This document shows, one piece after another, positions 7,477 to 62,574 of a stretch of 64,000 bases of DNA (positions are counted from its first letter, which is position 1; each line of letters begins with the position of its first letter). Source of the stretch: Alphaproteobacteria bacterium (GTDB taxonomy: Bacteria; Pseudomonadota; Alphaproteobacteria; Rs-D84); assembly GCA_017962125.1 (NCBI GenBank), contig JAGCVZ010000011.1:182255-246254 (forward strand), read 5' to 3'. Under the pieces are notes generated by a model. That model saw only the letters and a list, made by a program, of their open reading frames with translations, ran no database searches and was not told where the DNA came from. The position numbers were made by a program, and so were the translations under genes.

Positions 7477-7504
7477 TGCGGGGCACGATGCCCCGCATTT
7501 AAAA
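7477..7504 (+). terminator. GC hairpin (TGCGGGGCA-CGA-TGCCCCGCA) plus T-rich tail after the OMP gene
   Basis: Seen in sequence 14 nt after the stop at 7463. The same GCGGGGCA/TGCCCCGC stem recurs at about 45543. Confidence 0.4.
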
Positions 7505-10619: not shown

Positions 10620-10661
10620 AAAATCACATCTGAATAAAGCCTTTTGGATTTTGTTCCAAAC
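10620..10661. repeat. 42-bp perfect direct repeat, copy 1 (equals the last 11 codons plus stop of the M23 peptidase gene)
   Basis: AAAATCACATCTGAATAAAGCCTTTTGGATTTTGTTCCAAAC, identical to 11150..11191. Confidence 0.85.
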
Positions 10662-10664
10662 CTA

Positions 10665-11126
10665 CTATACTCTCACTTTTGATGACATTAATAACTGCCT
10701 ATTCATCGCTATTGCATCAGATATTAATTTATAGGTTACTGTCTTGCTTCTTTCATGCTTGCTATATAAATAAGGTGCCCTCATCCTTTTCTTTTTAACA
10801 TAGAAATATGTCACTGCTGGATTTTTTTCTTGTTTGGAATGTAAATACGCAATCTCATTAAAAATCTCTGAAAACACAGAATCTTCCACCAATTTGTGTC
10901 CAAAATTTGCAACAAAAAATTCACATTCTTTGTCGACTTTATTCCAACCAACATGAAGAATTATTTTTTTCGTGTTTGAATCAGTAATCGTGTAATACTT
11001 CCATCTTGCTTTGAACGGTCTAAGTTGTACATCCGGATTAAATATATTAAATTGAATTCCTTCTTCTGTTTTTTCAAAAAATTTGATTTCGTAATTTATA
11101 CCATTCAACAATTCTTCTAACGTCAT
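10665..11126 (-). CDS. hypothetical protein (153 aa, cytoplasmic), carried on the repeat-flanked insertion
   Basis: ATG at 11124-11126 with an AGGTG RBS. No signal peptide and no recognisable family. Confidence 0.5.
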   Translation of the reverse strand: MTLEELLNGINYEIKFFEKTEEGIQFNIFNPDVQLRPFKARWKYYTITDSNTKKIILHVGWNKVDKECEFFVANFGHKLVEDSVFSEIFNEIAYLHSKQEKNPAVTYFYVKKKRMRAPYLYSKHERSKTVTYKLISDAIAMNRQLLMSSKVRV

Positions 11127-11149: not shown

Positions 11150-11191
11150 AAAATCACATCTGAATAAAGCCTTTTGGATTTTGTTCCAAAC
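11150..11191. repeat. 42-bp perfect direct repeat, copy 2 (functional 3' end of the M23 peptidase gene)
   Basis: Identical to 10620..10661. Encodes ..LEQNPKGFIQM-stop on the minus strand. Confidence 0.85.
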
Positions 11192-12449
11192 TTTCTATGG
11201 CCCTATCCAAAGTCACACGATATTCCAAGAACTTCTTTTTATTCGCGGCATCTAAATTATCTATCGCCGGCAATTTTACCGTCATTGGATTTACATGCTT
11301 GCCGTCCTTGATAATTTCATAGTGCAAATGCGGTCCTGTTGAAAGTCCGGTTGACCCCGAATATCCAATAATCTGTCCCTGCTTTACTGCGGTACCAACT
11401 TTTACATTTTTCGCAAATTTTGACATGTGCGCATACAGCGTTTCAAAAGAACTATTATGACGAATCCTTACAAAGTTCCCATGCCCACGATTATAGCCAC
11501 GTGCAACGACACGCCCCGCCCCAGCAGATGGGATCGGGGTTCCGGTCGGTGCGCGGAAATCGACCCCCTTGTGCGCACGCGTGAACCCCAAGACGGGATG
11601 CTTGCGCCGCGTTGAAAAACTACTTGTTACTTTCGCGTTATTTATCGGTGTACGCTTCAACGATTTAATTGCGCCATTTCCATTTGGGTCATAATACCCG
11701 ACCGATTTATCAGATTTTTTAAATCGGTACATTTTTACATTTCCGCGTAACGCATCAAAGGAAACAACCGATACTGCACCATTATCGACCTTTACATTAT
11801 CATGATAGTTTTCTTCATACAGCACAGAAAATTTCTGTCCGGCACGCACATCGCGTTCAAAGTCCATTTCAAAAGCAAGCAAATCATAAACATCCGCCAA
11901 AATACCAGCCGGAATTCCGGCACGCATACCCGCAAGATAAAAGCTATCGCCATCCAAAATTTCCCCTTGTCGATAAACCAAGCGCGTATCGCGTTCAATA
12001 TCAATCGCGTTACAATTCCACACACCTGCATCATCACAAGTCAATTCCACACGCCGCCATGATCCTGGCAGCACAACAATCTTTGTTATTGGTGTTTCGG
12101 GGCCACCGTCACGCACAATTTCAATTTTATCCTTGTCCGCACGCAAACCCGTTATACCCGCCTTGGTCTTTAAAACATTTGCAATAGAATTTATATCTTT
12201 GCCACCAATACCATTCTCTGACAAAATCTTTGACAGTGTGTCCCCTGCTGCAACATTTATCACTGTTGTCTTATCGTCAACCACAGATTCTGTTACAAAA
12301 TCGGCATTAACAGATGACGGTCGCCCACGCAATACAGACCATAAAACAACCACAACCGCAAACGCGGCAACCAGTCCTGCAATCCATAAAACCGCGCGGA
12401 CAAACTTCCCAGAAGTAATAATATTTTTTGCTTTTTCCATGGCGTCCAT
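11154..12449 (-). CDS. M23 family metallopeptidase (membrane-anchored, LytM/NlpD-like)
   Basis: HKGVDF..GYSGSTGLSTGPHLHYE M23 catalytic motifs with an N-terminal TM helix. Start taken at the internal ATG 12449; the ORF extends to 12476. Confidence 0.8.
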   Translation of the reverse strand: MDAMEKAKNIITSGKFVRAVLWIAGLVAAFAVVVVLWSVLRGRPSSVNADFVTESVVDDKTTVINVAAGDTLSKILSENGIGGKDINSIANVLKTKAGITGLRADKDKIEIVRDGGPETPITKIVVLPGSWRRVELTCDDAGVWNCNAIDIERDTRLVYRQGEILDGDSFYLAGMRAGIPAGILADVYDLLAFEMDFERDVRAGQKFSVLYEENYHDNVKVDNGAVSVVSFDALRGNVKMYRFKKSDKSVGYYDPNGNGAIKSLKRTPINNAKVTSSFSTRRKHPVLGFTRAHKGVDFRAPTGTPIPSAGAGRVVARGYNRGHGNFVRIRHNSSFETLYAHMSKFAKNVKVGTAVKQGQIIGYSGSTGLSTGPHLHYEIIKDGKHVNPMTVKLPAIDNLDAANKKKFLEYRVTLDRAIESLEQNPKGFIQM

Positions 12450-32672: not shown

Positions 32673-32749
32673 GTGCCCATGGCTCAATTGGATAGAGCAA
32701 TTGCCTTCTAAGCAATAGGTTGCAGGTTCGAGTCCTGCTGGGCACGCCA
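32673..32749 (+). tRNA. tRNA-Arg (anticodon TCT)
   Basis: Acceptor GTGCCCA/TGGGCAC, anticodon stem ATTGC/GCAAT with loop CTTCTAA, T-arm GCAGG-TTCGAGT-CCTGC, encoded CCA. Confidence 0.85.
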
Positions 32750-32755: not shown

Positions 32756-32966
32756 CAACTCGACCTTTTTGGTCGGTTTTAATTTTTGTTGCGTAACCAA
32801 AGGACGAGAACCCAGGTTCGAAAACAAGTAGATTTTGCAAATGTAATGCAGCAAAATCGTCACGGTTTGCGCGCAGTGTCGGCAAAGCCGACCAAGCGAC
32901 CCGATAGTTGATGAGAACGAGTGTAAACGAAGTTCGAATCTTACGTGTGGTGAGCATAGCGAACAA

Positions 32967-32989
32967 TCCTGCTGGGCACGCCAAAAATT
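32967..32989 (+). repeat. 23-bp direct repeat copy 2 (att-like)
   Basis: Identical to 32733..32755. The ~210 bp between copies contains tRNA T-loop-like fragments (GGTTCGAAAAC, GTTCGAATC). Confidence 0.75.
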
Positions 32990-33010: not shown

Positions 33011-33034
33011 CGGTTTAACCACTAACACTAATCA
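33011..33034 (-). repeat. solo stop-motif terminus (TGA-TTAGTGTTAGTGGTTA) of the IR-element family at the mscS stop
   Basis: On the minus strand the mscS stop TGA is the first triplet of TGATTAGTGTTAGTGGTTA. Confidence 0.5.
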
Positions 33035-33922
33035 CTTTTTAACATGCACATCCACTTGCGGAAAAGGAAAGTGAATCTTCTTTTTCGGCAGTTTATTGTA
33101 TATCGCTTCTAACATATCGCCTCGACTAGGGATCATATCGTTCGCTGATGTCCAATAGCGCACTGTAAGTACAACCGCACTATCCCCTAAATCAGAAACA
33201 AAAACATTTGGAGCTGGATCTTTTAAAACACGTTTATCCGCCTTGATTATCGCCAGTATCTCTTTACGCGCTACATCAACACTGTCGCCATAAGAAATTG
33301 CAACCGATAGTTCCGCGCGCCGCGTTTCATTTCCCGAAAGGTTTGTTATCTGACTATTGGACAGCGCACCGTTCGGCAACAAAACAACCTGGTTATCAAA
33401 AGTATGAATTTCAGTTGTAAAAATCATAATCTTTTTAACAATCCCAGTTTTGCCATCAGATGTTGAAATAATGTCACCAACCTTGAACGGTTTTAGAAAC
33501 ATAATGATAATTCCGCCGGCAAAATTCTGCATTGTTCCGGACAATGCCATACCAACCGCCAACGAAGCCGCACCAATAACAGCAACAATAGATGTCATTT
33601 GAACGCCAACGGTCGCAAGTGATATAATAACTACGAATATCCGCAAAAGTATATTCACAAACGAACCTAAAAAAGTAACAAGCGATGCATCTGATCCGCG
33701 CCGTTCTAACATACGTTTGAAAGATTTCGCAAGACGCTTTGCTATCCACATTCCACCCATCAAAACAACAAGTGCCGCAAGCAACTTTAAACTAAAATCC
33801 ACCGCCATGCTCGTCAGTGATGAAATCAAAGTTTTTAATTCCTCTGCGCTGGCTTGAACCTTTTCTGGCACAGTCTGTATCGCATCAACCGCATTACCAA
33901 CAACACTATCAACAACTTCCAT
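33032..33922 (-). CDS. mscS: small-conductance mechanosensitive channel MscS
   Basis: 296 aa. TM helices, then the conserved beta-domain region (..GDIISTSDGKTGIVKKIMIFTTEIHTFDNQVVLLPNGAL..). Confidence 0.8.
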   Translation of the reverse strand: MEVVDSVVGNAVDAIQTVPEKVQASAEELKTLISSLTSMAVDFSLKLLAALVVLMGGMWIAKRLAKSFKRMLERRGSDASLVTFLGSFVNILLRIFVVIISLATVGVQMTSIVAVIGAASLAVGMALSGTMQNFAGGIIIMFLKPFKVGDIISTSDGKTGIVKKIMIFTTEIHTFDNQVVLLPNGALSNSQITNLSGNETRRAELSVAISYGDSVDVARKEILAIIKADKRVLKDPAPNVFVSDLGDSAVVLTVRYWTSANDMIPSRGDMLEAIYNKLPKKKIHFPFPQVDVHVKK

Positions 33923-44022: not shown

Positions 44023-45510
44023 ATGAGAAAGTTCATGATATTCGGGTTGTTCGCGGCATTTATCGGTTTCGCATTCGCCGATGATATTGCCGACAGGCAA
44101 ACAGTAACATCACTAACGTATGTAAATGATGAACTTTCTGAAAAACAAGATATATTCGGTGCGCAATCAGGAACAAAAGTTGCAACTTTTACCAATACCG
44201 CCGGGGAAATCACACCACGCGAAGTAAAATCAGATTTAGGCAATAACACAAACGACACCGCATTACCAACGGTTAGTGCAGTGAATACAGGTTTAGATGC
44301 CACCCAAGATACACTTGGTGCAAACAAACATGCGGATTATGTTGCGACATATACAAATGCGCCGGGTGAATTAGGTGAAAAAGGAATCTATCAAGACAGT
44401 GGCACATACGCCGAACAACAAAATGCACTTGTTGATGCGGGAACATTTAATGCGGCATTACAAAACGGATTGGATAATGAATTTGTTTGTGCCGGCAATG
44501 ACCCCGCAACCGGTAATTGTTGGTTATGGACGACACATAATGGACCGGTGAACTTGTTTAATGGGACCATGTATAAAGGCGGTTTAAATCTCAACGTCTC
44601 GTTTGTAGCTTCCAATTTTAAAAAAATTACTTCGCCATATACCCCAAACTCTGACTTTTATGGTCCAACCTTTTATGCAAGGGTTAAACCAAATACGAAA
44701 TACATGGTAACCATGACCACGAGTGCAAGATATAAATACGTTGCCTATTATTCAAACGAAAGTGATATTACCGATAGAAGTCTGGCATTAGGATATGCCA
44801 ACGTATCTAATAACATGTTCACCACACCATCAGGTGCAAATTACGCTGTTATTAGTTTTACTAATGCCAACACCAATGAAATAACATGGTCAAATGTCGA
44901 GCTCTATGAAATACCTGATTCCATTCTGGTTCCTTATGCATATACCCCGTTGGAATATATAGAAGCAACAAACGAAACCACAACTATTAATTTAGGGCTT
45001 TCCGGAGATATGAATTTTCTGGTTGTAGCACAATCAAGTAGAATAAAAGGCGCTTCACAAACCTTGCTTTCATCTACAAATGGCGGAAACACTAGTACAT
45101 GGTTTGGCGAGGCTACAACTACGCATACTTGGGGCGTGAGCGGTGCTAGCGGCGCTCATGCTATCTATTCAACTGAAAAGATATCTGCTAATATCACATT
45201 TGATTCTTTTGGGGCAAGGGGGACGGTAAATGGGCAAACCATTGTGAGAAATAAAGATACAACACAACAAAATTGGTGTTTGTTTAGTACTTGTATTGGC
45301 TATTATCCGTTTTTAGGCAAAGTTTGGACATTGCGAGCATATCAAAATGGTGTGCTTGTAGGAAATTTTATCCCCGCAAAACGTAATAGCGATAATGAAA
45401 TTGGTATGTACGATACAGTATCGGGCACGTTTAAAACTAACACTGGCACCGGAACACTTATCGCCGGGCCAGAGATAAGTAATAATGTTTACCTGCCCCA
45501 GAATCAGTGA
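44023..45510 (+). CDS. secreted Cys-poor T/N/S/G-rich beta-rich protein (adhesin- or fibre-like)
   Basis: ATG at 44023 with RBS AGGGGGAGGA and signal peptide MRKFMIFGLFAAFIGFAFA. About 495 aa with only 3 Cys. C-terminal ..GMYDTVSGTFKTNTGTGTLIAG... Confidence 0.6.
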   Translation: MRKFMIFGLFAAFIGFAFADDIADRQTVTSLTYVNDELSEKQDIFGAQSGTKVATFTNTAGEITPREVKSDLGNNTNDTALPTVSAVNTGLDATQDTLGANKHADYVATYTNAPGELGEKGIYQDSGTYAEQQNALVDAGTFNAALQNGLDNEFVCAGNDPATGNCWLWTTHNGPVNLFNGTMYKGGLNLNVSFVASNFKKITSPYTPNSDFYGPTFYARVKPNTKYMVTMTTSARYKYVAYYSNESDITDRSLALGYANVSNNMFTTPSGANYAVISFTNANTNEITWSNVELYEIPDSILVPYAYTPLEYIEATNETTTINLGLSGDMNFLVVAQSSRIKGASQTLLSSTNGGNTSTWFGEATTTHTWGVSGASGAHAIYSTEKISANITFDSFGARGTVNGQTIVRNKDTTQQNWCLFSTCIGYYPFLGKVWTLRAYQNGVLVGNFIPAKRNSDNEIGMYDTVSGTFKTNTGTGTLIAGPEISNNVYLPQNQ

Positions 45511-45596
45511 TTAGTGGTTAGTATTTTGTCTTTTTGCGGAAACGCGGGGCATTTGCCCCGCGCATTAACACTTATCACTTACACTAACCACTATTA
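45507..45596. repeat. IR-bounded GC-hairpin element between convergent genes (stop-motif family)
   Basis: Left arm GTGATTAGTGGTTAGTA includes the TGA stop of the 44023 gene. Centre CGCGGGGC-ATTT-GCCCCGCG. Right arm ACTTACACTAACCACTATTA includes the TAA stop of the minus-strand ygiW-like gene. Confidence 0.6.
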
Positions 45597-45980
45597 TAAC
45601 TTCTTCATTGCGGACACATCAATTTCAATCATAGATGCACCATTTTTATCAACTTCGCCCCAAACTTCAACGTAATCTGATGGTGAAACACTCATACCAC
45701 CCCAATCTTCTTGGTCTATTTCCAAATTGATTGTTCCTGTTTCATCTTGGAAAATATATGAATTTTCACCATTTTGGCGCAACAAGTACCCGCGAACAAT
45801 AACCGGCGAATTATCAGACAAACCACGAACCTGTTCGATTGTCATAACTTCGGTCATTGTATTGTTATTCATATTATTATTCGCCATGGTGCCTGGTCCT
45901 GCAAAAGCGGCCGTTGACGCAACAATACCCAACGCCACCATCACAGATATTTTTTTGCATTCTTTATTTTTTTCCTTCAT
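45594..45980 (-). CDS. YgiW/YdeI BOF (bacterial OB-fold) family periplasmic protein
   Basis: ORF trimmed to the ATG at 45980 (MKEKNKECKKISVMVALGIVASTAAFAG). ..TIEQVRGLSDNSPVIVRGYLL..YIFQDETGTINLEID..YVEVWGEVDKN..IEIDV matches the BOF pattern. Confidence 0.7.
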   Translation of the reverse strand: MKEKNKECKKISVMVALGIVASTAAFAGPGTMANNNMNNNTMTEVMTIEQVRGLSDNSPVIVRGYLLRQNGENSYIFQDETGTINLEIDQEDWGGMSVSPSDYVEVWGEVDKNGASMIEIDVSAMKKL

Positions 45981-57018: not shown

Positions 57019-58152
57019 ATGTTCAGATTAAATTTTCGAAGCAAACCAAATACATGGCCGGCATTCATAGACCTGTTTTCAAATTTGGTTATAATATTGA
57101 TATTTTTGCTAATCGTCTTTGTGTTTTTATGGACGACGACCAGCGTATTTAATAAACGCAACGGGGTTAAGACTATTGCGGAATTAAAACAAATGAACAT
57201 AGAACAAACTGCACAAATCAATCAAATGACCGCAGATAATGAAGAAGCCATGCGGTTATTAATTCAAGCACGTGCAGAATTGCTATCTAACCAAGACGAA
57301 TTGGACAGCAAGAATTTATCTATGATTGACATAATTACCGCATATGAAAACGAAGTATCCAAGGTAAAATCCAGTGATGATGCCGCCCGACGCGAAGTCG
57401 CAGAACTGCGCGAACAACTAGCACAAACAACTGCTATCAAAGAACAACTTGTCGAATTAGAACAACAACGCAGTATATTACAGGAAAAAATGCAAAAACA
57501 GGTAAATGTTCAACAAGAATTGATAGATGCCCAAGAATCAGAAATGGCGAAATATACGTCGGAATTAAAACGTCTAAATGCCGCGCTTACCAACGCAGAC
57601 AAAGAACTTTTAAGCCAACAGGTTAAATACATCGAAATGTCAAATAAACTAAACAAGGCGCTTGCCGACAAAGTTGCCGAATTGCAAGACATGCGCGAAT
57701 ACCAGTCTGAATTTTATCGTGCGGTAAAAATTGCACTTGGCGATACAGAATCAATAGAGGTTGATGGAGACCGCTTTATCGTGCAAAGCGACATACTATT
57801 TCCAACCGGCTCATACAAGTTATCAACCGAAGGTAAAAAACAATTACGCCTTGTATCAAATGTCATCAAAGAAATGGAAATGAAAATTCCATCAGACATT
57901 GAATGGATAATTCGTGTTGATGGTCATACTGACAATAAGCCTGTCGTTCCTGGCAATCGCGCATATTCAAATAACATGGAATTGTCATTACTGCGTGCGA
58001 CGGCGGTAGTGAACGAACTAGTGCGGGACGGCGTACAGAGCAAACGTCTTGTTCCTACGGGATTTGGCGATATGTACCCATTTGTTCCGAACACAACCAA
58101 GGCGAACATGCAGAAAAACCGTCGCATTGAATTGAAACTCACGAATAAATAG
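57019..58152 (+). CDS. MotB/OmpA-C-like peptidoglycan-binding protein with long coiled-coil linker
   Basis: 377 aa. N-terminal TM (LVIILIFLLIVFVFLW), an ~200-aa Q/E/L-rich coiled coil, and a C-terminal OmpA/MotB domain (RVDGHTDNKP..NMELSLLRATAVVNELV..NRRIEL). RBS GAGGGAG. Confidence 0.7.
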   Translation: MFRLNFRSKPNTWPAFIDLFSNLVIILIFLLIVFVFLWTTTSVFNKRNGVKTIAELKQMNIEQTAQINQMTADNEEAMRLLIQARAELLSNQDELDSKNLSMIDIITAYENEVSKVKSSDDAARREVAELREQLAQTTAIKEQLVELEQQRSILQEKMQKQVNVQQELIDAQESEMAKYTSELKRLNAALTNADKELLSQQVKYIEMSNKLNKALADKVAELQDMREYQSEFYRAVKIALGDTESIEVDGDRFIVQSDILFPTGSYKLSTEGKKQLRLVSNVIKEMEMKIPSDIEWIIRVDGHTDNKPVVPGNRAYSNNMELSLLRATAVVNELVRDGVQSKRLVPTGFGDMYPFVPNTTKANMQKNRRIELKLTNK

Positions 58153-58345
58153 TGGAAAGTGTTAGTGTAAGTGGTTAGTAATTTCTGGAATTATTTCATA
58201 ATTGTGAAATTATTCTGGAAAACAAAGTTCCCCTCTGGAAATCACCCACAAAAAATGTTGCACTTTTTTTGCGGGAACCGGTATAGGGGTGCCGCGGCAC
58301 CGCTTTGTGGTGACGGGCGGGGTGTCGCCCACTAACACTTTCCAC
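58150..58345. repeat. IR-bounded GC-rich element (MITE/REP-like), stop-motif family
   Basis: Perfect 16-bp terminal inverted repeats GTGGAAAGTGTTAGTG (58152-58167) and CACTAACACTTTCCAC (58330-58345). Left end begins with the motB-like stop TAG (TAGTGGAAAGTGTTAGTGTAAGTGGTTAGTAA). Core has GGTGCCGC-GGCACC and the AAAGTTCCCCTC block. Confidence 0.6.
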
Positions 58346-58407
58346 TCCAACACTTTTCCCTTTCCTTTTTTCATAACTTATGATAAAATGCATCAGCATA
58401 GAGAGAG

Positions 58408-61150: not shown

Positions 61151-61159
61151 CCCCCAAAT

Positions 61160-61404
61160 TTCCAAATAATTCCAGAGACTAAAGTTCCCCTCCTGCGGAG
61201 GGGTGCTGGGTAGCACCCGGCGGGGTGGTCTTTTACAAACAATTTGAAAATTCAAACGACCACCTCCCCCTTCGGGTACTCCTCCACAGGAGGAGAACTT
61301 TGCACTCTGCCCCCGCGGAGATACCGCTTTTCAACGGTATGACGATAAAAAACGGGCACAACCGCGCCCGTTTTCCATCAATCACTAACCACTAACACTC
61401 CCCA
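61160..61404. repeat. composite GC-rich structured element related to the 58150 element, ending in a stop-motif terminus at the pgk stop
   Basis: AATTCCAGAG, the AAAGTTCCCCTCC block, hairpins CCCCTCC-TGC-GGAGGGG, GGTGCT-GGGTA-GCACC, CTCCTCC-ACA-GGAGGAG and ATACCG-CTTTTCAA-CGGTAT. On the minus strand the end reads TAG-TGGGGAGTGTTAGTGGTTAGTGAT, where TAG is the pgk stop. Confidence 0.55.
61351..61375. terminator. bidirectional intrinsic terminator (AACGGGC..GCCCGTT flanked by A6/T4)
   Basis: Within the composite element. T-run follows on the minus strand after pgk. Confidence 0.45.
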
Positions 61405-62574
61405 CTAACACTCACGCAACACTTCTATCCCCGGCAATTCGCGACCTTCGATAAATTCCAAAAATGCGCCACCTCCGGTTGACACATACGTTATATCGCC
61501 CATCACGCCGCACGCATCCAAGGCCGCCACCGTATCGCCACCACCAACAATACTTTCAAGTTTTCCACTACGTGTATTATTGGCAATCGCACGCGCAATC
61601 GCGAACGATCCAAACGACCACGTCGGTTGCCACTCCGCCATACCAACCGTTCCGTTCCAAATTACAGTTGCGGCCTGGCCTATTTCAACCGCATCACGCT
61701 GCGCGGTTTTCGGTCCACCGTCAATAATCACATCGTCCGGCGCAATGTCCGCAATATCTTTATCAGTGCGTGGCGCATTAGGTTCAAAGACCGGTCCAAC
61801 ACCCTTGTCCAGTGGCACCAAGAAACGGCAGTTATTTTCGCGCGCGTATTCCATAATCGCAAGTGCGTTTTCTTTCTGGTCCGGTTCATACAGCGAATTT
61901 CCAACCGCATCACCCATTGCATAATTAAAAGTCGTTCCCAATGCACCGCCAACAATAATCGTGTCCGACAGTTTCGCCAATGCACGCAGCACGCCGATTT
62001 TCGTCGAAACCTTGGAACCTGCGACTATAGAAAGCACAGGGTGCTTTGGATTTTCCATAACGCGTGTCAGGTTATCTATCTCGCTCTCTAACAACAACCC
62101 AGCATAGGACGGCAAAAATTTTGTTACACCAACAGTACTTGCATGCGCGCGGTGCGAAACTGCAAACGCGTCATTCACAAAGACATCAAATCCCGCTGCT
62201 AACTTTTCGGCGAACGCCGGGGCGTTTTCTTCTTCACCTGCATAAAAACGCAAATTTTCAAGCAACACCACATCGCCATCTTGCATTTCCGCCATAAAAT
62301 CGCGGTTCAGACAATCATCGACAAACGGCAACTTCATATATTCCGCCACACCGCGCAACGAATATTTCATGTCACGCGTTCCCTTTGGCCGCCCCAGGTG
62401 AGAACAAATCGCAACCCGCGCGCCCGCATTGCGCAATGCCTCTATCGTAGGCATACTCCGTTCAATACGAAATCCTTCGGTAATTTTACCATCAACAATT
62501 TGCACATTAAAATCATCGCGCAACAACACATACTTGCCCCGCAAATCCAGCCCCTGAATTGTCCTAAGTTTCAT
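61405..62574 (-). CDS. pgk: phosphoglycerate kinase
   Basis: 389 aa. MKLRTIQGLDLRGKYVLLRDDFNV.. N-terminus. Hinge and C-terminal nucleotide-binding motifs present. Confidence 0.9.
   Translation of the reverse strand: MKLRTIQGLDLRGKYVLLRDDFNVQIVDGKITEGFRIERSMPTIEALRNAGARVAICSHLGRPKGTRDMKYSLRGVAEYMKLPFVDDCLNRDFMAEMQDGDVVLLENLRFYAGEEENAPAFAEKLAAGFDVFVNDAFAVSHRAHASTVGVTKFLPSYAGLLLESEIDNLTRVMENPKHPVLSIVAGSKVSTKIGVLRALAKLSDTIIVGGALGTTFNYAMGDAVGNSLYEPDQKENALAIMEYARENNCRFLVPLDKGVGPVFEPNAPRTDKDIADIAPDDVIIDGGPKTAQRDAVEIGQAATVIWNGTVGMAEWQPTWSFGSFAIARAIANNTRSGKLESIVGGGDTVAALDACGVMGDITYVSTGGGAFLEFIEGRELPGIEVLREC

What the first reader, a model, noticed from the sequence alone, without database searches (positions are those of the whole stretch)
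45507..45596. Single IR element serving as stop codon and convergent terminator for two genes simultaneously
Its left arm contains the TGA stop of the plus-strand 44023 gene. Its right arm contains the TAA stop of the minus-strand ygiW-like gene. Its centre is the 8-bp hairpin CGCGGGGC-ATTT-GCCCCGCG. The whole intergenic space between the convergent genes is the element itself, so both C-termini end inside it. The same GCGGGGCA/TGCCCCGC stem occurs as the terminator hairpin at 7477..7497.
Basis: seen in the sequence. Interest (0 to 1): 0.5.

Follow-up and report, generated by a model that had tools for sequence, protein, structure and literature searches.

The report
Lineage-specific inverted-repeat terminator element
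The 83 bases between two convergent genes are one small copy of a previously undescribed repeat family in uncultured gut Alphaproteobacteria: two facing arms of stop-codon-rich TAGTG units around a GC hairpin, sitting against both stop codons without shortening either protein.

Summary
Two convergent genes end 83 nt apart (TGA 45508-45510; TAA 45596-45594). The gap holds a perfect 11-nt inverted repeat (45512-22 / 45583-93; 1 of 2000 shuffles) around a 9-bp GC hairpin (45543-62).

The arms are not unique. They are copies of a C-free repeat of 6/7-nt units (TAGTGGT / TAGTGT / TAAGTG), found 6 times in the window. The repeat occurs only in the closest relatives (order Rs-D84, Ca. Enterousia-like) and on more than 120 rumen and termite-gut metagenome contigs.

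Across 214 arms:
- 119 abut or overlap the stop of an ORF, and in 41 the arm's first TAG is that stop.
- Facing pairs outnumber back-to-back pairs 43:1.
- Convergent gaps are enriched (40% vs 18%).
- Cores are modular hairpins.
- One filled/empty site shows arm-core-arm behaving as one unit.

Both proteins keep the C-termini of homologs that lack the element, so nothing is truncated. The hairpin has no U-tract on either strand, although homologous copies elsewhere do, so terminator activity is plausible but unproven.

Verdict: a new foldback/MITE/SPRITE-like repeat family.

The parts
45508..45510 (+). TGA stop of the 495-aa + gene (44023..45510). It lies inside the first unit (AGTGATT) of the left arm.
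   Evidence: paralogs without the element end in TAA
45506..45523 (+). Left arm, AGTGATT-AGTGGTT-AGTA (about 2.75 units, no C). It closes all three reading frames within 14 nt (TGA, TAG, TAG).
45512..45522 (+). Perfectly complementary segment of the left arm (TAGTGGTTAGT).
   Evidence: I2, 100%
45524..45542 (.). T-rich spacer TTTTGTCTTTTTGCGGAAA. Read on the - strand (TTTCCGCAAAAAGACAAAA) it matches the decayed T-run/GCAAAAA tail seen after the same hairpin in L171 and L149.
45543..45562 (.). Central GC hairpin CGCGGGGCA-TT-TGCCCCGCG, about -20 kcal/mol. No U-tract follows it on either strand.
   Evidence: (I6)
45563..45593 (-). Right arm, read on the - strand: TAGTGGTTAGTGTAAGTGATAAGTGTTAATG (4 units). 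It closes all three frames within 32 nt of the TAA.
   Evidence: The orthologous arm sits behind ygiW in L196 and L006, with short or degenerate versions in L027 and L005.
45583..45593 (-). Perfectly complementary segment of the right arm (+ strand ACTAACCACTA).
   Evidence: I2
45594..45596 (-). TAA stop of the YgiW/BOF-family gene (about 45594..45980). It is followed in frame by the arm's TAG, giving a tandem stop.
33014..33037 (-). Another arm of the same family, behind the MscS-like gene 33032..33922. That gene's TGA (33034-33032) lies inside the arm. The arm is conserved at the orthologous site in L027, L013 and L014.
58150..58180 (+). Another arm. Its first TAG (58150-58152) is the stop of the OmpA-family gene 57019..58152.
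58330..58354 (-). Facing partner arm of 58150-58180. It does not follow any gene. The pair encloses a cluster of hairpin modules.
61383..61412 (-). Another arm. Its TAG (61407-61405) is the stop of the phosphoglycerate kinase gene. A canonical terminator follows (61344-61379).

Best explanation
The interval 45506-45596 is one compact copy of a lineage-specific, foldback-like interspersed repeat. The repeat has two facing arms built from a variable number of 6/7-nt units (TAGTGGT / TAGTGT / TAAGTG / TAGTGAT). The arms are essentially free of C and carry TAG, TGA or TAA in every reading frame. They enclose a core of one or more GC-rich hairpins. Such units sit preferentially at gene 3' ends, especially between convergent genes.

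**Shown**
- Membership of the family.
- The family's restriction to this clade.
- Its bias towards gene 3' ends and convergent gaps.
- The fixed arm polarity.
- The all-frame stops.
- The intact C-termini of both proteins.
- One filled/empty site in relatives.

**Inferred mechanism**
- Ribosomes coming from either gene are released at or right next to the arm, whatever their frame.
- RNA polymerase from the ygiW side meets arm, then hairpin, then a degraded T-run (UUUCC). This is a weakened version of the arm-hairpin-T-run terminator module that follows other genes in relatives.
- Polymerase from the 495-aa gene meets the same hairpin with no U-tract at all, so termination on that side is probably inefficient or factor-assisted.
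- Transcripts that read through can pair the G/U-rich 5' arm with the A/C-rich 3' arm (11-14 bp here, up to about 40 bp in other copies). That gives a larger foldback which could block 3' exonucleases or be cut by RNase III.

Whether the family spreads as a mobile element or is maintained by the host is not settled. I regard an originally mobile or recombining repeat that now serves, at least passively, as the 3' end region of both genes as most likely.
For: **Anatomy.** Searches give the layout. The IR is beyond chance and the fold z-scores are -6.2 and -6.6.

**Family.**
- There are 6 arms in the window.
- Arm density per 100 kb is 7.8 in the window, 7.7 in the closest relatives and 2.5 in the next tier. 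It is 0 in more distant Rs-D84-like genomes and 0.1 in about 0.9 Mb of outgroups.
- More than 120 metagenome contigs carry an 18-mer of the arm.

**Statistics over 214 arms**.
- 0.9% of arm bases are C.
- Unit spacer counts after AGTG: GTT 265, TT 222, TA 86, ATT 37.
- 119 arms lie at ORF stops. In 41 the first TAG is the stop, and in 28 more the stop lies inside the arm.
- 43 facing pairs against 1 back-to-back pair.

**Context**. 40% of elements lie in convergent gaps against an 18% baseline.

**Hairpins**. A GC hairpin follows within 25 nt in 49% of arms against 17% at random positions. A hairpin plus T-run follows in 16% against 1.5%.

**This hairpin.** The stem GCGGGGC..GCCCCGC occurs 5 times in the metagenome loci, each time next to an arm and four times with a T-run. 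L149 has TAG-arm-CGCGGGGCTTTTGCCCCGCG-TTTCATTTTTT behind rplY, which is homologous to the ygiW side here.

**Unit behaviour.** L174 carries a 155-nt arm-core-arm where L124 has 13 nt, between conserved flanks.

**No truncation.**
Against: - No U-tract follows the hairpin on either strand, and the terminator scan did not flag it. The genome's other terminators do have T-runs.
- Only 16% of arms precede a canonical hairpin plus T-run.
- The whole 90-nt unit has no second copy in about 2 Mb of fetched sequence. Only the arms and the stem recur.
- No target-site duplication and no transposase between wide-spaced arms were found.
- Arms of one element are not significantly more complementary to each other than to arms of other elements (16.4 vs 14.9 nt, p = 0.08), so the foldback may not be selected.
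- 128 of the 214 arms are unpaired.
- The ygiW arm exists in relatives without a partner arm.
- There are no expression or 3'-end data.
Confidence: 0.55

Rival explanations
1. There is no single element. Each gene carries its own host-maintained 3'-end motif (stop codon plus G/U-rich TAGTG repeat) upstream of a terminator. Because the two genes converge on one hairpin, the two sense copies happen to form an inverted repeat.
For: - The ygiW arm is conserved behind ygiW in L196, L006, L027 and L005, although the downstream neighbour differs (tRNA-Arg, or another gene) and no partner arm is present.
- The arm behind the MscS-like gene is kept at the orthologous site down to relatives with about 70% transketolase identity, while the adjacent hairpin sequence changes.
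- 128 of 214 arms are unpaired, and 68 of those lie at ORF stops.
- In co-directional gaps, solo arms are sense to the upstream gene 22 times against 11.
- Own arms are not more complementary than foreign arms.
Against: - 24 of 43 facing pairs have at least one arm that does not follow an ORF. One example in the window is 58330-58354, and that arrangement is conserved in L005, L006, L027 and L153.
- Both arms and the core are absent together at the L124 empty site.
- Some arms lie outside the flanking genes' own terminators (L151, L158, L173).
- Arms flank a whole PF05635 gene in L095, L104 and L179.
- Most genes (about 55 of 60 in the window) lack the motif, and relatives terminate the same genes without it.
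Confidence: 0.22
2. The arms are an array of binding sites for a sequence-specific protein. The protein could bind RNA, as an oligomer that reads repeated UAG/AGUG triplets every 6-7 nt in the way TRAP reads (G/U)AG repeats, or it could bind DNA. The element would then be a regulated 3'-UTR or insulator rather than a simple terminator.
For: - The unit sequence is far better conserved than the neighbouring hairpins at orthologous sites.
- The periodicity is strict at 6/7 nt, the unit number varies from 2 to 18, and the arms are almost free of C, so they stay single-stranded unless the partner arm is transcribed.
- The polarity is fixed.
Against: - No candidate protein was identified and no Rfam family matches.
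- Arms also occur antisense and outside transcription-unit ends.
- The TRAP analogy comes from my general knowledge and was not tested.
Confidence: 0.1
3. The element is a purely selfish or neutral repeat (a decaying MITE or foldback remnant) with no role in ending either gene. The real 3' ends would be made elsewhere, for example by Rho on the G-free stretch that follows the hairpin.
For: - The hairpin lacks a U-tract.
- The left arm is short and the T-run is degraded relative to homologous copies.
- On the + transcript, the 47 nt after the hairpin contain no G, which is rut-like by inspection.
- The family shows indel polymorphism.
Against: - No other hairpin or terminator exists in the 83-nt gap.
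- The family is 10-fold enriched for hairpin plus T-run downstream of arms and 2-fold enriched in convergent gaps.
- Arms persist at orthologous sites over large divergence.
Confidence: 0.12
4. It is a chance inverted repeat around an ordinary terminator.
For: GC hairpins after stop codons are common in this genome.
Against: A perfect IR of 11 nt arose in 1 of 2000 shuffles. The arm sequence recurs in the window, in relatives and on more than 120 metagenome contigs.
Confidence: 0.01

Closest known systems
[quoted passage not shown] 2011, as summarised in PMC3184786)
   Same: [quoted passage not shown] The same bias is seen here, along with enrichment of hairpin plus T-run.
   Different: It comes from an unrelated phylum and has an unrelated sequence. 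SPRITE is a roughly 105-bp unit of fixed sequence. Here the conserved part is the pair of tandem-unit arms and the core is modular and variable. This copy lacks the U-tract.
Correia elements / NEMIS (Neisseria MITE, about 104-157 bp; PMC3184786)
   Same: - Both are small elements bounded by inverted repeats, occur in many copies and lie close to genes.
- They are reported to affect transcripts through promoters, an IHF site and RNA processing.
- From my own knowledge, the Correia terminal repeat starts TATAGTGGATTAA, which resembles TAGTGGTTAG.
   Different: - Correia TIRs are a fixed 26-bp sequence with a TA duplication and a conserved interior.
- Here the arms are variable arrays of 6/7-nt units (2-18 units).
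- No duplication was detectable.
- The interiors are mosaic.
- The sequence resemblance is 8 of 10 bases and untested for homology.
REP / BIME / REPIN (enterobacteria, Pseudomonas)
   Same: Both are extragenic, favour 3' ends and convergent gaps, occur as inverted pairs with variable linkers, persist at orthologous sites, and have proposed roles in mRNA 3'-end stabilisation and termination.
   Different: A REP is itself a GC-rich imperfect palindrome with a 5' GTAG. An arm here contains 0.9% C and cannot fold on itself. RAYT transposase was not looked for genome-wide.
BOX elements (S. pneumoniae)
   Same: Both have a modular build, with end modules and a variable number of internal modules (PMC3184786). 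Here the internal modules are the CTGGAAT hairpin, the GTTCCCCTC hairpin and GC hairpins.
   Different: The sequences are different, and BOX ends are not tandem short-unit arrays.
Eukaryotic foldback (FB-type) transposons
   Same: The terminal inverted repeats are built from tandem short subrepeats whose number varies between copies. The variable middle can carry cargo. This comparison rests on my general knowledge.
   Different: They are eukaryotic and far larger, with known transposases in some cases. No bacterial counterpart is known to me, and nothing here shows transposition chemistry.
Bidirectional intrinsic terminator between convergent genes
   Same: A single GC-rich hairpin lies midway between two convergent stop codons.
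   Different: There is no A-tract/U-tract pair (tails TTTCCGCA and CATTAACA). The flanks are instead the two arms.

Membership tests
Intrinsic (Rho-independent) bidirectional terminator | Stable GC-rich stem-loop immediately downstream of the stop codons | tested here: met
   The stem is 9 bp (45543-45562) at about -20 kcal/mol.
Intrinsic (Rho-independent) bidirectional terminator | U-tract directly after the stem on each transcribed strand | tested here: not met
   The site was not flagged by the scan. The tails are CATTAACA (2 T of 8) and TTTCCGCA (3 T of 8).
Intrinsic (Rho-independent) bidirectional terminator | Mapped RNA 3' ends at the hairpin | not testable with these tools
   No transcript data are available.
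MITE (e.g. Correia) | Terminal inverted repeats | tested here: met
   An 11-nt perfect IR is present here. Across the family there are 43 facing pairs against 1 back-to-back pair.
MITE (e.g. Correia) | Target-site duplication flanking the element | tested here: inconclusive
   No direct repeat is evident in 55 pairs. The ends are TA-rich, so a TA duplication cannot be excluded. The single filled/empty pair is too diverged to tell.
MITE (e.g. Correia) | Filled and empty orthologous sites | tested here: inconclusive
   One pair was found in relatives, L174 against L124. None is available for this locus.
MITE (e.g. Correia) | Uniform size and conserved internal sequence among copies | tested here: not met
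   Gaps between arms range from 24 to 357 nt in the 43 pairs. The cores are mosaic. The whole unit has no second copy.
MITE (e.g. Correia) | Cognate autonomous element or transposase with the same ends | tested here: inconclusive
   None lies between wide-spaced arms in the fetched loci. Whole genomes were not searched.
REP / REPIN | Each repeat is a 20-40 nt imperfect palindrome with a conserved 5' GTAG | tested here: not met
   Arms contain 0.9% C and cannot self-pair. The unit is (T)TAGTG(G), not GTAG plus a palindrome.
REP / REPIN | Extragenic location with bias to 3' ends and convergent gaps | tested here: met
   Convergent gaps hold 40% of elements against an 18% baseline, and divergent gaps 11% against 17%.
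REP / REPIN | RAYT (Y1 transposase) gene in the genome | not tested
   Only 64 kb plus about 45 kb of this genome was available.
SPRITE-like terminator repeat | The repeat carries a terminator-like hairpin plus U-run and lies near 3' ends of convergent genes | tested here: inconclusive
   For the family, hairpin plus T-run follows 16% of arms against 1.5% at random, and the convergent bias is met. This copy lacks the U-run.
Foldback-type element (arms of tandem subrepeats) | Inverted arms made of a variable number of short tandem units | tested here: met
   Arms hold 2-18 units of 6/7 nt.
IVS-like / RNase III-processed stem | Long (about 20 bp or more) duplex formed by the two ends | tested here: not met
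   Only 11-14 bp form here. Other copies reach 24 bp to about 40 bp.
Any Rfam RNA family | Covariance-model match | tested here: not met
   Nothing reached the gathering score in the window apart from 2 tRNAs. Only chance-level hits appeared at E up to 10 in 45300-45800.

The most novel reading that the evidence does not exclude
The TAGTG-arm units are a new class of bacterial foldback element, so far seen only in genome-reduced gut Alphaproteobacteria (Rs-D84). The element homes to stop codons, inserting at the TA of TAA or TAG so that its first TAG becomes the gene's stop. It brings a ready-made 'stop translation in all frames, then stop transcription' cassette. It sometimes carries cargo, such as a PF05635 23S-rRNA-IVS-type gene. 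In this reading the copy at 45506-45596 ends two genes at once.
Probability: 0.2. Interest if true: 0.65.

Novelty: new variant of a known kind. Interest (0 to 1): 0.42.

Why it matters
Small interspersed repeats such as REP, Correia, BOX and SPRITE shape transcript ends, mRNA stability and genome plasticity. They have been described almost only in cultured model bacteria.

This family is abundant, at about 8 arms per 100 kb, in uncultured gut symbionts whose genomes are under 1 Mb (PMC12306168). Repeats are usually purged from genomes of that size.

Its arms are unusual in three ways: they are tandem 6/7-nt units, they are free of C, and they carry stops in every frame. In a third of arms that lie at an ORF stop (41 of 119), the arm's first TAG is that gene's stop codon.

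If the family is mobile, it would be a repeat that can land on the end of a gene without damaging it. If it is host-maintained, it is a sequence-specific 3'-end signal of unknown reader.

In practice, gene callers and terminator predictors for these MAGs should know the motif. The motif is also a convenient lineage marker in rumen and termite metagenomes.

Tried and rejected
1. **Truncation of either protein: rejected.** Homolog C-termini match, as do three paralog loci and 11 YgiW orthologs.
2. **A second copy of the whole 90-nt unit: none found.** Only the arms and the stem recur.
3. **The hairpin as a 'subfamily'.** The stem GCGGGGC..GCCCCGC is absent from about 1.36 Mb of transketolase-anchored loci and occurs 5 times in the metagenome loci, always next to an arm. 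The 7478 copy has no arm and unrelated flanks, so common descent is undecided.
4. **Target-site duplications: none seen**.
5. **Transposase or other mobility gene between wide-spaced arms: none found**.
6. **Co-variation of the two arms of one element: not significant** (p = 0.08).
7. **Rfam: nothing found**.
8. **Literature.** No paper carries the arm sequence in this sense. Searches on terminators and MITEs gave only comparators.
9. **An orthologous empty site for this exact locus: not available.** Relatives carry a different gene in place of the 495-aa gene.
10. **DNA-level oriented signals** (uptake sequences, Chi/KOPS-like, DnaA, IHF or CtrA boxes, integron attC core GTTRRRY): set aside. 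Arm orientation follows genes rather than the constant GC skew, the density is too low for uptake sequences, and the consensus matches are poor. These are by-eye comparisons from my own knowledge, not tests.
11. **A 'spacer that keeps the terminating ribosome off the hairpin': weakened.** Relatives place terminators 3-10 nt after the same stop codons without any arm.
12. **Contaminating hits.** L159, a telomere-like satellite, is a chance hit to the 18-mer. It was excluded from the count but not.
13. **'Viral' contigs with arms.** L205 carries dnaB and HTH genes plus a weak terminase fragment, which is uninformative.
Full report
**1. What is at the coordinates**

The + strand ORF 44023..45510 (495 aa, no Pfam hit) ends with TGA at 45508-45510. 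The - strand ORF ending with TAA at 45596-45594 is a BOF/YgiW-family protein (PF04076, E = 5e-22).

The 83 nt between them contain:
- a perfect 11-nt inverted repeat, TAGTGGTTAGT 45512-45522 / ACTAACCACTA 45583-45593;
- a central perfect hairpin, CGCGGGGCA-TT-TGCCCCGCG, at 45543-45562.

A perfect IR of this length arose in 1 of 2000 shuffles of the region. The 111-nt region folds into outer helix plus inner hairpin with z = -6.2 on the + strand and -6.6 on the - strand. The 8-mer GCGGGGCA also makes the hairpin at 7478-7496.

One correction is needed: complementarity stops short of both stop codons. TGA lies 2 nt outside the left complementary segment, and TAA directly abuts the right one.

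**2. The arms are copies of a repeat**

Read in the sense of the adjacent gene, both arms are strings of AGTG separated by 2-3 nt:
- + gene: CAG-TGA-TTAGTGGTTAGTA
- ygiW: TAA-TAGTGGTTAGTGTAAGTGATAAGTG

The same kind of string occurs four more times in the window: 33014-33037 (-), 58150-58180 (+), 58330-58354 (-) and 61383-61412 (-).

Five of the six arms touch the stop codon of the upstream gene, in sense:
- TGA 45508 (495-aa gene)
- TAA 45596 (ygiW)
- TAG 58150 (OmpA-family gene)
- TAG 61407 (phosphoglycerate kinase)
- TGA 33034 (MscS-like gene)

About 55 other genes in the window have no such motif.

**3. Organism and distribution**

The 495-aa protein is identical to a protein of 'MAG: Alphaproteobacteria bacterium' with J6Y07_ locus tags, from a ruminant gut assembly.

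Transketolase-anchored loci from species-representative genomes place the MAG among Candidatus Enterousia-like MAGs. This is the order Rs-D84, whose genomes are mostly under 1 Mb (PMC12306168).

Arms with at least 3 units occur at these densities per 100 kb:

| Group | Arms per 100 kb |
|---|---|
| Window | 7.8 |
| Three closest relatives (transketolase 83-84% identical) | 7.7 |
| Next tier (69-72% identical) | 2.5 |
| More distant Rs-D84-like genomes (247 kb) | 0 |
| Outgroups (891 kb; one unrelated chance hit) | 0.1 |

From their contig names I take these to be mostly rumen and termite-gut samples. It also hit 3 'viral' contigs.

**4. Family anatomy** (window + relatives + metagenome loci; 214 arms with at least 3 units)

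- **Units.** Spacer counts after AGTG: GTT 265, TT 222, TA 86, ATT 37. Of 204 arms with enough flank, 157 are preceded by T. Copies hold 2-18 units (3-18 in this tally). C makes up 0.9% of arm bases.
- **Frames.** Because the period is 6 or 7, the TAG, TGA or TAA in each unit rotates through all frames. At the finding, all three frames are closed within 14 nt (+ gene) and 32 nt (- gene).
- **Stops.** 119 arms abut or overlap the stop of a long ORF in sense. In 41 the arm's first TAG is the stop, and in 28 more the stop lies inside the arm.
- **Polarity.** Within 400 nt, arms face each other 43 times and lie back-to-back once.
- **Context.** 40% of elements lie in convergent gaps (18% baseline) and 11% in divergent gaps (17% baseline).
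- **Hairpins.** A GC hairpin follows within 25 nt in 49% of arms (17% at random). A hairpin plus at least 5 T in 8 follows in 16% (1.5% at random).
- **Cores.** They are mosaics of a few recurring modules:
  - plain terminator hairpins;
  - an AT-rich palindrome TCTGGAAT...ATTCCAGA;
  - a GTTCCCCTC...GAGGGG hairpin;
  - other GC hairpins.

  The last three module types also occur in the window, at 58183-58330 and 61151-61380.

**5. Is arm-core-arm one unit?**

For:
- L174 carries a 155-nt arm-module-module-hairpin-arm where the orthologous site in L124 has 13 nt, between conserved flanks.
- 24 of 43 facing pairs have an arm that follows no ORF. In the window, 58330-58354 is one such arm, and the arrangement is conserved in L005, L006, L027 and L153.
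- Some pairs lie outside the flanking genes' own terminators.
- Three orthologous loci have arms flanking a PF05635 (23S-rRNA-IVS protein) gene between rbfA and lepA.

Against:
- 128 of the 214 arms are solo.
- The ygiW arm is present in L196, L006, L027 and L005 with different downstream neighbours and no partner arm.
- The MscS-gene arm persists at the orthologous site across the subclade while its hairpin changes.
- No target duplication was found.
- No transposase was found.
- There is no significant arm-arm co-variation.

I conclude that the family is a foldback/MITE/SPRITE-like repeat. Its arms can persist alone. Whether it is currently mobile is open.

**6. The hairpin**

The exact stem GCGGGGC..GCCCCGC is absent from 1.36 Mb of transketolase-anchored loci. 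It occurs 5 times in the metagenome loci, always next to an arm and four times with a T-run.

L149 has rplY-TAG(arm)-CGCGGGGCTTTTGCCCCGCG-TTTCATTTTTTGC. L171 has arm-CGCGGGGCAATGCCCCGCG-TTTTTTGCAAAAA. Both match the ygiW side of the finding, arm-CGCGGGGCAAATGCCCCGCG-TTTCCGCAAAAAG.

So the core is oriented as ygiW's terminator module, with a decayed T-run. For the 495-aa gene the tail is CATTAACA. The consensus terminator scan did not flag the site, while the genome's other terminators have clear T-runs. Terminator activity is therefore plausible for ygiW, doubtful for the + gene, and untested for both.

**7. Do the proteins end 'inside' the element?**

They are not truncated.
- Most of the homologs inspected end in ...(V/I)Y(L/I)PQNQ, sometimes with a few added residues.
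- Three paralog loci end in ...YLPQNQ(N) with TAA and no arm.
- All 11 YgiW orthologs end in ...DVSA(M/I)KK(L/I). Seven of them have TAA or TAG followed by a canonical terminator and no arm.
- OmpA-family, PGK and MscS orthologs likewise keep the same last residues with or without arms.

The arms begin at or right after the stop. For the + gene, the TGA (against TAA in the paralogs) lies within the first unit, so the element may have replaced the stop codon without changing the protein.

**8. Mechanism**

*Shown:* the anatomy, the family, the biases, and the intact C-termini.

*Inferred:*
- Ribosomes from either side are released at or next to the arm in any frame.
- Polymerase then meets the hairpin.
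- Read-through RNA can pair the G/U-rich 5' arm with the A/C-rich 3' arm. The same polarity arises on both strands because the unit is symmetric.
- On the + transcript, the 47 nt after the hairpin contain no G and could load Rho.

*Alternatives* are listed as rivals:
- a host 3'-end motif rather than an element;
- a protein-binding array;
- a neutral remnant.

**9. Comparison with known systems**

The closest in kind are:
- SPRITE, a terminator-like repeat near convergent 3' ends;
- Correia elements;
- REP/BIME;
- the modular BOX elements (PMC3184786).

The arm architecture, variable tandem subrepeats, resembles eukaryotic foldback transposons (my own knowledge).

Defining features of REP are not met: a palindromic unit with GTAG. 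Defining features of classical MITEs are also not met: a fixed TIR, a duplication and a uniform interior. I therefore do not file it in either family. No paper in the library carries the arm sequence in this sense, and Rfam has no match.

**10. Verdict**

It is an IR element of a real family that touches both stops, with no truncation and an unproven terminator.
- Novelty: a new variant of a known kind of bacterial interspersed repeat.
- Interest is moderate for the family and low to moderate for this single locus.

Noticed in passing
window 44023-45510; paralog loci L002 10001-11512, L003 1564-3087, L004 10001-11140: The 495-aa protein belongs to a multi-copy family with no Pfam match. At least 5 paralogs occur in this MAG and 192 database hits were found, mostly unnamed MAG or metagenome proteins. 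The N-terminal part and the C-terminal third are conserved around a variable middle, and the extreme C-terminus is near-invariant...N(V/I)Y(L/I)PQNQ*, sometimes followed by SAQNQ. This looks like a variable surface or secreted protein family with a C-terminal sorting or anchoring tag.
   Followed up: partly
window 58183-58220, 58225-58236, 61151-61206; also L099, L115, L127, L152, L154, L155, L171, L173, L174, L204-L206: Two further conserved intergenic hairpin modules recur inside arm-bounded cores across the clade. One is an AT-rich palindrome, TCTGGAATnAnTTC..AATTAcG..ATTCCAGA. The other is a GTTCCCCTC-loop-GAGGGG hairpin. Neither has an Rfam match and their function is unknown.
   Followed up: partly
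L095 2235-2640, L104 1483-1885, L179 216-675: In three orthologous metagenome loci a facing pair of arms encloses a complete gene for a PF05635 '23S rRNA-intervening sequence protein' (E = 2e-29), inserted between rbfA and lepA. The layout resembles an rRNA intervening sequence (a long stem around a small ORF), but it sits in an mRNA context.
   Followed up: partly
window 32966-32984 versus tRNA-Arg(tct) 32673-32749: A second copy of the last 17 nt or so of the tRNA-Arg gene (tcctgctgggcacgcca) lies about 215 nt downstream of the intact tRNA, right next to the hairpin and arm behind the MscS-like gene. In relative L006 the same hairpin abuts the intact tRNA. This may be the scar of an integration or excision at the tRNA 3' end.
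   Followed up: no
window 10620-10668 and 11150-11198: A 49-nt direct repeat at 96% identity, 530 nt apart, brackets the small - strand ORF 10665..11126 (family D7). It may be a local duplication of a gene end.
   Followed up: no
L167 966-1073; L179 596-676: These are extreme arms with 18 and 13 tandem units (about 110 and 80 nt). They show that unit number can expand like a minisatellite.
   Followed up: no
L174 1722-1876 versus L124 10093-10119: This is the filled/empty site for a 155-nt arm-core-arm unit. It lies between a terminator and a TTGACG..TATACT promoter-like sequence, so it is not at a stop codon.
   Followed up: yes
L204, L205, L206 (IMG/VR contigs): Arms also occur on contigs classed as viral. 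In L205 the stop TAG of a dnaB-type helicase is the first TAG of an arm. The contig also carries HTH regulators and a weak terminase-N hit, so it may be a prophage or a chromosomal fragment.
   Followed up: partly
L159 1-480: This contig matched the 18-mer four times but is a telomere-like or satellite tandem repeat (TTAGGG-rich, period about 81-93 nt) unrelated to the family. It shows that a few of the 120 metagenome hits are chance matches.
   Followed up: yes
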